A stretch of DNA of 64,000 nt, from NCBI GenBank assembly GCA_951406725.2, contig OX597816.1, positions 128,588,001 through 128,652,000 of the forward strand, given 5' to 3'. The stretch comes from Octopus vulgaris. Its lineage: Eukaryota. Positions within the stretch are counted from its first letter, which is position 1, and each line of letters opens with the position of its first letter. A program made the position numbers and the translations under genes. The notes under the pieces are model-generated. The model made no database searches. It worked only from the letters and a program-made list of their open reading frames with translations, and was not told the origin of the DNA. Shown here in pieces: positions 27,241-33,153 of the stretch.

Positions 27241-27845
27241 CGAGGTGATATCAAAAACTTCCTGGACTAGTTCTGTAGCACACCAACAGATGACAGCACT
27301 CAATTGCCTGTGCAGTGAGAACTTGTAGCGAACTTCATGAAGCAATGTACTGAGTGACATCAGTGTTTGCTTCGCATGTTGAGAAATTTGTGTTTTTGTG
27401 ATCATGTGTTTGCTGTAAACTGTGATTTTGTCATTGAAAGAACAAAGAGCTAACATGAAATTTTGCATTAAACTTGGAAAATCTGCTACAGATTCATTGA
27501 GCATGCTTCAGCAAGCCTACAGTTATGAGGCTATGGAACATACACAAAGCTTCAAGTGGCATAGGCACTTCAAAAGCAGAAGAATGTTCCTGGAAGACAA
27601 TGAGCGATCTGGGAGATTTGCCATGAGCATTATCCTGGAAATGTGGTATTGTGTATTGATAATTCAACCCTTAGGGCCAGACTATCAACTGAGAGTTCTG
27701 TGACATTTTGAAGTGTTTTGAGGGAGGACATTTGGTGAGTGACTGGATCTGTGGAGTGCAAAGAATTGGATTCTTCAGGTCAACAATGCACCCTATTACT
27801 GTGCTCTGCTTACTCATGAGCTTTTCACCAAAAACAACATGGTAA
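27241..27845 (+). mobile_element. 5' part of a mariner (TIR plus transposase N-terminal HTH), internally deleted
   Basis: TA then CGAGGTGATATCAAAAACTTCCTGGACTAG; EQRANMKFCIKLGKSATDSLSMLQQAY; later WILQVNNAP (DNAP-like). Confidence 0.85.
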
Positions 27846-27916
27846 CACAACCCCAGCTGATAATCGTGAACTATAAGATAATTTTTTCTAGCTTATCAAA
27901 CTTCGATATGGAAAAA

Positions 27917-27953
<37 letters not shown>

Positions 27954-27957
<4 letters not shown>

Positions 27958-28439
27958 CGATTCGATTTATTATTGTTATTACTAGTATTGTTGTTATACA
28001 TACATACATACAAGCATATGTAATGATAATAATAAATGGATGTAAACACATGACCAAAATAAGAATAAACAAAAACAACAACAACAAAATCAAAATACAA
28101 ATTACATGAACGTATATAAACAGAAGATACAAATATTACAGACATCCCCCCACATACACACACTAAATAAACATAGGCGCACATAGAGATATAAGCATGC
28201 GCAAATGAAAACATACAATAGAAATACAAAATGGCTGATGGTTAGTAAGGAGAGACACAAATAAGAAAGAAGAAAACAAAGGACCACTGATGCAGTCACA
28301 GGAGTGTGACGAAAGAACTCTGGTCGAAATAAGATTAAGATTAATGTAAAAAATAAATAACACTGAAGCAAAATAACACCAAATATATAGTGCGTGTGTT
28401 TTTATTGGCTAAACTGGCAATATGACCATTCCGAAATAT

Positions 28440-28444
<5 letters not shown>
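27954..28444 (+). mobile_element. ~490-bp non-coding hammerhead-bearing insert bracketed by (TA)n (solo pLTR or retrozyme-like)
   Basis: (TA)n on both sides (27925-27953 and 28445-28492); contains the motif at 28282-28325; CpGs retained. Confidence 0.6.
28282..28325 (+). ncRNA. minimal type-I hammerhead ribozyme with CUGAUGC(A) core variant
   Basis: gacca-CUGAUGC-a-gucaca/ggag/ugugac-GAAA-gaac-UC-ugguc; perfect 5-bp stem I and 6-bp stem II; predicted cleavage after C28320. Confidence 0.75.
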
Positions 28445-28501
<57 letters not shown>

Positions 28502-29189
28502 ATGTATATGTGTATATATATACATTGCCAGATGAGACTGGGCCTGGTGCAGCCTTTTGGCTTCCCAGACCCCATGCTAGCATGGAAATCGGATGCTAAA
28601 TGATGATGATATATGCATGTATGTAGGAATATATGTATGCATATATATATTTCAGGCCACATTTTGTACTATTCTATTTTATTGCTATTTCTTCCTTTAG
28701 TTAAGGATATGCTCCATCGTACCGTACATAGCACTGATCTACAGCATCTGAGACACACTACAGCTAACCCCAGATACATGTTTCAATAACAAGCAAACTC
28801 TCTGAATGAACTGCCTGTGCAAATAAACTAGATAAATATCTACATATTCAACAGAGCTGTGTTACTATTATATGATATAGTAGTTTATTTATCTACTTAT
28901 GCAACGGTACAGATATTCACATATATTATGCAAGTCTGTATGAGTTAGAACATTAATCCGTAATAAAAGCTTTGTAAATATTTAAAATTGTTCAAGCTTA
29001 AAGTAGTTATTATCTCTATCAAAGGAACTAGACTTCAGAGAGTAATCAGAAAAACCAAATAAATAGCATCATAAATTTGTTATAAAGGGAATACTTAAAT
29101 TTGTTGAATTTTGAAGAAAATTAGTGATATAAATAACTTAAATGTGGAATTTTTGTTGAGCTGAGTCAAGATTTAAATAAAATAGTTAA

Positions 29190-31802: not shown

Positions 31803-32954
31803 CATACAAAGTTATTTAGGACGAATATAACATCTAAAGTTATCTCTAAGAAGCAGAAAGATCGCCCAAAAGTGTATATAGATATTTAAATGTATTTATA
31901 TATTCATCTATACACACATGTATGTATAACGTGTGTGTATATATTTCCATAGAGGTAACCATTCACTCCGCACAAAGTTTTTTAGGACGAAAATAACATC
32001 TAAAGTTATCTCTAAGTAGCAGTCGCCCAAAAGTGTATATAGACACACACATGTATGTATAATGTGTGTGTATGTATTTCCATAGAGGTAACCATTCACT
32101 CCATACAAAGTTATTTAGGACGAATATAAGATCTGAAGTTATCTCTAAGAAACAGAAAGATCGCCCAAAAGTGTATATAGATATTTAAATGTATTTATAT
32201 TTTCATCTATACACACATGTATGTATAATGTGTGTGTATATATTTCCATAGAGGTAACCATTCACTCCATACAAAGTTATTTAGGACGAATATAAGATCT
32301 AAAGTTATCTCTAAGAAACAGAAAGATCGCCCAAAAGTGTATATAGATATTTAAATGTATTTATATATTCATCTATACACACATGTATGTATAATGTGTG
32401 TGTATATATTTCCATAGAGGTAACCATTCACTCCGCACAAAGTTTTTAGGACGAAAATAACATCTAAAGTTATCTCTAAGAAGCAGAAAGATCGCCCAAA
32501 AGTGTATATAGATATTTAAATGTATTTATATATTCATCTATGCACAGATGTATGTATAACGTGTGTGTATATATTTCCATAGAGGTAACCATTCACTCCG
32601 CACAAAGTTTTTAGGACGAAAATAACATCTAAAGTTATCTCTAAGAAGCAGAAAGATCGCCCAAAAGTGTATATAGATATTTAAATGTATTTATATATTC
32701 ATCTATGCACACATGTATGTATAACGTGTGTGTATATATTTCCATAGAGGTAACCATTCACTCCGCACAAAGTTTTTTAGGACGAAAATAACATCTAAAG
32801 TTATCTCTAAGAAGCAGAAAGATCGTCCAAAAGTGTATATAGATATTTAAATGTATTTATATATTCATCTATACACACATGTATGTATAATGTGCGTGTA
32901 TATATTTCCATAGAGGTAACCATTCACTCCATACAAAGTTTTTTAGGACGAAAA
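31803..32954 (+). repeat. tandem array of 7 units of ~165-166 bp (one 133-bp deleted unit) plus a partial unit
   Basis: CAAAGTT..TAGGACGAA recurs at 31807, 31973, 32106, 32272, 32438, 32603, 32768, 32934. Confidence 0.95.
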
Positions 32955-33153
32955 TCTTTATATATAAAAGAAAGGTTGTGTGTCTGTCTACTCCGATTTA
33001 GATTCCTAACTACTCCCACATTTTGCGATGCAGTTTAACCAAAACCGAGTATCTTATAGTCGTGATTCATATCGAGCCCTTCTGGGTATTAGTGCGCGTC
33101 TACGATGAGTCTACGATTGTACAAATAATTTACCATCATTTTTTCCCATTTTA

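What the first reader, a model, noticed from the sequence alone, without database searches (positions are those of the whole stretch)
27954..28444. Young ~490-bp (TA)n-embedded element with a near-perfect hammerhead bearing C at position 9
Seen: perfect stems I and II, CpGs retained, core CUGAUG-C-A, a 2-bp stem III with a 2-nt loop and a CUC triplet; no ORF; (TA)n on both sides. Established: A9 normally forms a sheared pair with G12. Inference: either C is a bulged insertion and the next A acts as A9, or this is an A9C variant. The size fits a retrozyme-like monomer or solo pLTR. It is the best candidate here for bench testing.
Basis: partly seen in the sequence, partly recalled or inferred. 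Interest (0 to 1): 0.75.

Follow-up and report, generated by a model that had tools for sequence, protein, structure and literature searches.

The report
Penelope transposon stump, mutated hammerhead core
This stretch is the leftover end of a very common jumping gene whose built-in self-cutting RNA carries an inherited change at a normally fixed core position; the change likely weakens cutting, yet the lineage kept multiplying, which offers a natural series for testing whether these elements need their ribozyme.

Summary
The hammerhead is real, but the element is not a retrozyme. It is a solo pseudo-LTR plus the first 8 codons of a Neptune/Nematis-type Penelope-like retrotransposon; a full copy with a 1,309-aa RT/GIY-YIG ORF exists. 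The motif has 3,666 exact genomic matches. The register is settled: 253 sibling copies have A in the C column, and the next base is G in most copies, so this is A9C plus the extra 9/10.1 nucleotide usual in Penelope hammerheads. This copy's 'C-A' (126 of 3,666) is likely CpG decay, and its perfect stem I rests on a rare change, so it is a poor bench representative. Subfamilies run A9, then C9, then C9 plus C17U, oldest to youngest; the youngest has intact ORFs. Best reading: a likely weakened ribozyme that copying does not need. Selection after A9C is unresolved (p=0.13), and copy ends show no sharp peak at the cut site (11 of 76, p=0.22). Cleavage is untested. Interest 0.4.

The parts
27925..27954 (.). 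(TA)n at the 5' junction; either target microsatellite or the remnant of the (TA)n/(T)n tract that lies inside the element's own 3' UTR
   Evidence: the same tract lies between ORF stop and this segment in the full copy L091
27954..28444 (+). Solo, 5'-truncated pseudo-LTR of a Neptune/Nematis-type Penelope-like element, 'mid' (C9/C17) subfamily
   Evidence: 92% identical to both pLTRs of full copy L091
28281..28326 (+). Type I hammerhead of the Penelope minimal kind, with short stem III
   Evidence: layout matches PMC4209133
28293..28293 (+). Core position 9 = C (A in older subfamilies and sister family)
28294..28294 (+). Extra nucleotide between 9 and 10.1; A here, G in most copies (likely CpG decay in this copy)
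   Evidence: 126 of 3,666 matches have C-A
28314..28319 (+). Stem III/loop hexamer AGAACU; not self-complementary, so dimer pairing is predicted weak
   Evidence: self-duplex +1.4 kcal/mol against 0.0 for the sister family's AGAUUU
28320..28321 (+). Predicted cleavage site after C17 (U17 in the youngest subfamily)
   Evidence: hammerhead geometry
28324..28324 (+). Copy-level C>T change that makes stem I look perfect
   Evidence: T in 1 of 29 closest copies; C in at least 99% of summed contig depth in 4 of 4 runs
28422..28445 (+). First eight codons of the retrotransposon ORF (MTIPKYNN); the copy stops at the shorter of two common 3' ends
28444..28522 (.). (TA)n target microsatellite at the 3' junction
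   Evidence: 114 of 212 copy ends are followed by (TA)5 within 20 nt

Best explanation
The 491-bp element is the truncated end (solo pseudo-LTR plus eight codons) of a high-copy Penelope-like retrotransposon, and its hammerhead carries an inherited A9C change that likely weakens self-cleavage without stopping transposition. Shown: family membership, register, subfamily order, two preferred 3' ends inside the ORF start, TA-rich targets. Inferred: the element's RT/GIY-YIG protein nicked a (TA)n tract, primed cDNA about 25 nt into the ORF on a pLTR-ORF transcript, copied through the ribozyme and stopped at the internal (TA)n tract. Inferred: because the priming site lies about 125 nt downstream of the cut site, any copy that contains the ribozyme came from uncut (or re-ligated) RNA, so a slower ribozyme costs little and may help. 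A9C spread in the source lineage, C17U followed, and this copy later picked up two further changes and is likely inert.
For: Full copy L091: pLTR, 1,309-aa ORF, pLTR, both with C9. RT and GIY-YIG motifs, CX4CXXC linker and CCHH residues invariant in 51 relatives. 3' ends at +22..+26 in 103 of 212 and +76..+85 in 72 of 212, the 'tail' pattern of PMC11167929. 17 of 31 close copies that reach the 5' edge continue into UTR/ORF; 20 of 30 truncated copies in the unbiased set have an inverted partner. Divergence within subfamilies: oldest A9 5.8%, old A9 3.2%, mid C9 2.7%, young C9/U17 0.9% (means; 2.3/1.55/0.11% on a shorter segment). Sister family keeps A9 and a self-pairing stem III. Two of the three source-lineage changes in the ribozyme hit core positions 9 and 17. 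PMC11167929: catalytic mutants did not affect insertion in vitro and uncut RNA was the main template. PMC8557442: Naiads without canonical hammerheads proliferate. PMC3088659: core changes usually cut activity sharply.
Against: No cleavage assay exists for this RNA and no paper measuring A9C was found. Stems I and II, CUGAUG and GAAA stayed unchanged in the source lineage: oldest to young 3 of 46 sites against 14 of 58 four-fold sites (p=0.017); after A9C 1 of 46 against 7 of 63 (p=0.13), a trend toward continued constraint, though the rest of the pLTR is equally conserved (20 of 324, p=1.0). 5' ends are about 4.5 times denser in 28319-28327 than in 28309-28317, which could hide some cleavage. 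U17 still fits the NUH rule. Pfam RT and GIY-YIG matches are below curated cut-offs, and the whole ORF gave no Pfam match. Higher C9 copy numbers partly reflect exact-match searches missing older, decayed A9 copies.
Confidence: 0.68

Rival explanations
1. Same element, but C9 is a working, selected variant: the ribozyme still cuts at a useful rate in vivo, helped by the element's protein or by dimer formation, and its fold is kept by selection.
For: No stem or other core change on the C9 branch apart from C17U; trend to constraint (p=0.077 one-sided); the anole Poseidon ribozyme cleaves only with its protein; truncations are dense just downstream of the core; C9 dominates in four coded organisms (A9 share of summed contig depth 16, 13, 11 and 2%).
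Against: No sharp peak at 28321 (11 of 76, p=0.22); 12 assigned copies starting at 28319-28320 carry their own subfamily's base at position 17 (8 young T, 4 mid C; 1 old copy does not), so they ran through the cut site; stem III is not self-complementary; a C.G sheared pair is not a known substitute for A9.G12 (recalled, no call).
Confidence: 0.2
2. The fold is kept for a non-catalytic job (promoter, protein binding, RT pausing), and catalysis was already irrelevant in the A9 subfamilies.
For: The whole pLTR is about as conserved as the ribozyme; AGAACU is already non-palindromic in the A9 subfamilies; few 5' ends fall inside the fold (1 of 30 in 28250-28318).
Against: A9 and the core persist between this family and a sister family whose ORF is only 45-57% identical, which argues for earlier selection on the core.
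Confidence: 0.1
3. One reading: a retrozyme-like 490-nt monomer, or C as a bulge with the next A acting as A9.
For: Size, (TA)n flanks and, in this copy alone, an A after the C; 14 of 31 close copies are also solos; one A9-type head-to-tail trimer exists (L098).
Against: The ribozyme lies inside the unit and the ends map to the ORF start and the internal microsatellite; no C9 tandem pair in the loci scanned; the base after C is G in most copies.
Confidence: 0.02

Closest known systems
Minimal type I hammerheads in pLTRs of metazoan Penelope-like elements (Cervera and De la Pena 2014, PMC4209133; read: abstract, Results, Discussion, part 2 of 3 of supplementary file 2; file 1 not searchable)
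   Same: Located in the pLTR; extra nucleotide between 9 and 10.1; G10.1-C11.1 pair; short stem I; 1-2 bp stem III; mostly solo truncated copies and opposite-strand pairs.
   Different: C at position 9 (all 44 rows in the part of Fig. S3 that I read have A9, but that search required it); extra nucleotide G (consensus H, one G row); stem III/loop not palindromic.
Neptune/Nematis clades of EN+ Penelope-like elements (Craig et al. 2021, PMC8557442; passages read)
   Same: RT followed by CX2-5CXXC linker and C-terminal GIY-YIG with CCHH; microsatellite targeting; inverted 5'-truncated partners; optional tail.
   Different: Clade not placed by a tree with reference elements; long low-complexity N-terminal region; tail about 55-60 nt against 30-40 bp.
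Poseidon element PAc of Anolis (Frangieh et al. 2024, PMC11167929; parts 1-2 of 4 read)
   Same: Two internal RT start sites inside the ORF start; AT-rich targets; hammerhead in the pLTR region.
   Different: Different clade; canonical core; there the ribozyme overlaps the start codon, here the cut site is 101 nt upstream of it.
Metazoan non-LTR retrozymes (PMC7229834, search listing only; bioRxiv 10.64898/2026.07.22.740005, part 1 of 5 and passages read)
   Same: Non-coding, type I hammerhead, related to pLTRs.
   Different: Retrozymes are head-to-tail tandem units; this is a dispersed stump of a coding element.
Natural hammerhead core variants (Perreault et al. 2011, PMC3088659; section 8 and passages read)
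   Same: Natural departures from the core consensus, several with low activity.
   Different: The text read names U3/A8, A6C, A6a, U13a, U15.1-A16.1, U4C and others, not A9C; the figures were not visible.

Membership tests
EN+ Penelope-like element | Single ORF with RT and GIY-YIG endonuclease | tested here: met
   1,309-aa ORF in L091; RT motifs and VVY/YVG motifs visible; Pfam RVT_1 E=0.0016 and GIY-YIG E=0.0025, both below cut-off; profile hits two bacterial RTs in PDB
EN+ Penelope-like element | Pseudo-LTRs flanking the ORF, inverted truncated partners, optional tail | tested here: met
EN+ Penelope-like element | RT groups with PLE/telomerase RTs in a tree | not tested
   no named PLE references at hand; no telomerase hit
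Neptune/Nematis clade | CX2-5CXXC linker between RT and C-terminal EN; CCHH in EN | tested here: met
   C670, C675, C678, C697, H724, H740, H745 invariant in 51 sequences; definition
Neptune/Nematis clade | Neptune versus Nematis by RT phylogeny | not tested
   no reference set; (TA)n bias points to Neptune
PLE minimal hammerhead | Extra nucleotide at 9/10.1, G10.1-C11.1, short stems I and III, NUH triplet | tested here: met
PLE minimal hammerhead | Core CUGANGA with A9 | tested here: not met
   C9 here and in most of the family; A9 in 253 of 3,666 matches
PLE minimal hammerhead | Palindromic stem III/loop for dimer cleavage | tested here: not met
   AGAACU self-duplex +1.4 kcal/mol
PLE minimal hammerhead | Self-cleavage at NUH | not testable with these tools
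   indirect copy-end test inconclusive
Non-LTR retrozyme | Head-to-tail tandem units each with a hammerhead | tested here: not met
   one copy in the window; the only same-strand close pairs in the loci scanned are in the A9-type trimer L098
Non-LTR retrozyme | Circular RNA of unit length | not testable with these tools
   only assembled contigs were available

The most novel reading that the evidence does not exclude
An active retrotransposon lineage stepwise retuned its own ribozyme (A9C, then C17U) while keeping the fold, and C9 with the following G is a functional, slower or protein-gated hammerhead core that standard searches miss; the slower ribozyme raised transposition because RT must copy through the cut site.
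Probability: 0.25. Interest if true: 0.68.

Novelty: new variant of a known kind. Interest (0 to 1): 0.4.

Why it matters
Why Penelope-like elements keep hammerheads is an open question. This family offers a natural, ordered series in one genome (sister family A9 with pairing stem III; A9; C9; C9 plus U17) with intact full-length copies of the last state, so cleavage rate can be set against transposition success. If C9 is dead, it shows a lineage thriving after losing catalysis; if active, it widens the hammerhead core consensus and means descriptor searches requiring A9 miss thousands of motifs per genome. The single window copy is an ordinary stump.

Tried and rejected
Rfam: no hammerhead hit. 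Bulged-C register and retrozyme monomer rejected. Independent repeated origin of C9 considered because 43 C9 matches have the oldest loop II (against 300 A9); by eye about half of the 30 fetched are mid-subfamily copies with a loop change, the rest fit a transitional subfamily, back mutation or recombination, so repeat origin is not claimed. The 222-bp tree is midpoint-rooted and poorly resolved; order rests on divergence and the sister family. Cleavage imprint in copy ends: 333 hits for starts at 28319-28327, 99 of the first 100 examined, 23 dropped as indel variants, 76 counted; control 77 hits, 30 examined, 8 dropped; no sharp peak. A planned downstream control was mis-registered and returned intact copies; its first 30 loci served as an unbiased sample, in which starts are also dense at 28208-28245 (11 of 30), so the 28319-28327 density is not unique. 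Same test on the A9 sister family: 55 hits (control 6), 30 examined, 14 dropped, 6 of 16 start at 1.1 with C or T allowed: too few and too decayed. Expression: no RNA holder listed; four guessed-RNA runs held contigs only, not used as evidence. C9:G12 Watson-Crick trapping is predicted minor (P 0.04-0.08). Papers not held: Lunse et al. 2017 on Penelope hammerhead variants and two mechanistic reviews; PMC9901934 (passages and file list) gave no number for position 9; PMC11014351, PMC6155905 and PMC6765202 (passages) gave nothing on A9C.

Full report
Observation. The motif is at the stated place: stem I 28282-28286/28321-28325, CUGAUG-C-A at 28287-28294, stem II, GAAA, a 2-bp stem III and CUC, between two (TA)n tracts. 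It folds as expected. Rfam does not detect it.

What the element is. The 491 bp have 2,277 candidate matches in a 2.8-Gb genome; of 40 scored, the near-full-length ones are 94-97% identical. Many continue upstream into an RT/GIY-YIG reading frame. Locus L091 holds a full copy: pLTR, a 1,309-aa ORF, pLTR. The ORF begins MTIPKYNN, which is window 28422-28445, 101 nt after the predicted cut. The C-terminal 796 aa are 99% identical over 717 residues to a protein labelled Octopus vulgaris. A CX4CXXC linker and the CCHH residues are invariant in 51 relatives, the marks of Neptune/Nematis elements (PMC8557442). Pfam matches are weak and absent for the whole ORF. Copy 3' ends fall at +22..+26 (103 of 212) or +76..+85 (72 of 212) from the ATG, and 114 of 212 are followed by (TA)5. 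This is the tail pattern that PMC11167929 traced to two internal RT start sites. The full element has its own (TA)n/(T)n tract just upstream of the 491-bp segment, which explains the 5' edge: of 31 close copies reaching it, 17 continue into UTR/ORF and 14 are solos. In an unbiased set, 20 of 30 truncated copies have an inverted partner. The unit length is therefore not set by the ribozyme; it is not a retrozyme monomer.

Register of the C. A pattern leaving positions 7 to 9+1 free has 3,666 exact matches, 0 in the control; 27 of the first 30 fetched read C-G; 253 have A in the C column; 126 have C-A like the window. So C is position 9 and the next base is the extra nucleotide that PMC4209133 describes as conserved in these ribozymes. 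The window's A is likely CpG decay; 2 of 11 family CpGs are lost in this copy, and its perfect stem I rests on T28324, found in 1 of 29 closest copies.

History. Diagnostic sites outside the core split copies into subfamilies: oldest (loop AGAAGU, mostly A9; 300 A9 and 43 C9 matches), old (mostly A9), mid (C9; the window) and young (C9, mostly U17), with mean divergence 5.8, 3.2, 2.7 and 0.9% (groups of 46, 46, 90 and 29 copies, 2 unassigned; the sample is enriched by design for A9, C-A and C9-with-old-loop copies). A sister family, 45-57% identical in the ORF, keeps A9 and a self-pairing AGAUUU. A9 is thus ancestral (inference from divergence and outgroup). Long intact frames were seen mostly in young C9/U17 copies (loci picked for paired ribozymes, not at random). 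C9 dominates in four coded organisms (summed contig depth, not copy number), so it likely predates their split.

Is it still a ribozyme? Not shown. A9 belongs to the consensus core and core changes usually reduce activity sharply (PMC3088659); the sheared A9.G12 pair is recalled knowledge, and three searches found no measurement of A9C. Stem III cannot pair well as a dimer even in A9 subfamilies. Across the source lineage the ribozyme changed at 3 of 46 sites against 14 of 58 four-fold sites (p=0.017), but no less than the rest of the pLTR (p=1.0); after A9C, 1 of 46 against 7 of 63 (p=0.13). Copy 5' ends are about 4.5 times denser in 28319-28327 than in 28309-28317, yet spread out: 17, 2, 11, 9, 4, 4, 14, 7, 8 of 76, with no significant peak at 28321 (p=0.22). 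Twelve assigned copies starting at 28319-28320 carry their subfamily's base at position 17 (one old copy does not), so they were copied through the site, and several junctions use GC-rich microhomology or the GGCC palindrome. RT pausing at stem I or microhomology explains this as well as cleavage does.

Mechanism. Shown: family, register, order, end patterns. Inferred: target-primed reverse transcription into (TA)n from an internal start downstream of the ribozyme, on uncut or re-ligated RNA. In the one PLE tested, dead ribozymes did not impair insertion in vitro, and elements lacking canonical hammerheads thrive. I put 0.68 on a weakened, dispensable ribozyme, 0.2 on a working selected variant and 0.1 on a purely structural role.

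Novelty. The element is a new member of a known class and this copy is an ordinary stump. A family-wide A9C in an ORF-intact lineage was not found in the texts I could read (and the searches above), but Lunse et al. 2017, the most relevant survey, and supplementary file 1 of PMC4209133 were not available, so it may already be catalogued. The scan's index holds no note on this sequence; it lists a different core variant (G3:C8) in another Penelope family of this genome (not checked here). Verdict: new variant of a known kind, interest 0.4.

Noticed in passing
L098:1656-2388 (G000:C6, about 28.67 Mb): Head-to-tail trimer of a 248-bp A9-type pLTR piece, each unit with a hammerhead: a retrozyme-like array born from this family.
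   Followed up: partly
window 28208-28245 (family coordinates): 11 of 30 unbiased non-young copies start here, 40-80 nt upstream of the ribozyme core; may mark the transcription start in the pLTR.
   Followed up: partly
window 28319-28327 (family coordinates): 5' truncation and fold-back junctions are dense on the 3' strand of stem I, including perfect palindromes centred on GGCC (L224, L310, L318).
   Followed up: partly
window 28261-28266 (young subfamily, e.g. L091): The youngest subfamily gained a GTAAGT splice-donor-like motif about 20 nt upstream of the ribozyme; motif identity recalled.
   Followed up: no
L131-L150 (sister family): Older sister Penelope family with A9, the same stem II and a self-pairing stem III; natural outgroup and control.
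   Followed up: partly
L156-L159 (G000:C1, 76.7-77.0 Mb): A local cluster of A9 copies with a shortened stem III region, ending in (ATT)n instead of (TA)n.
   Followed up: no
L076:910 and opposite strand: An unrelated U3-A8 minimal hammerhead as an inverted pair.
   Followed up: no
window 27400-27920: The insertion follows a decayed mariner-like transposase fragment (translation; family name recalled).
   Followed up: partly
window 28522-28610: Short repeat shared with other loci, SINE-like by recall.
   Followed up: no
window 31912-32955 and onward: Tandem array with 133- and 166-bp units, up to 97% matched.
   Followed up: no
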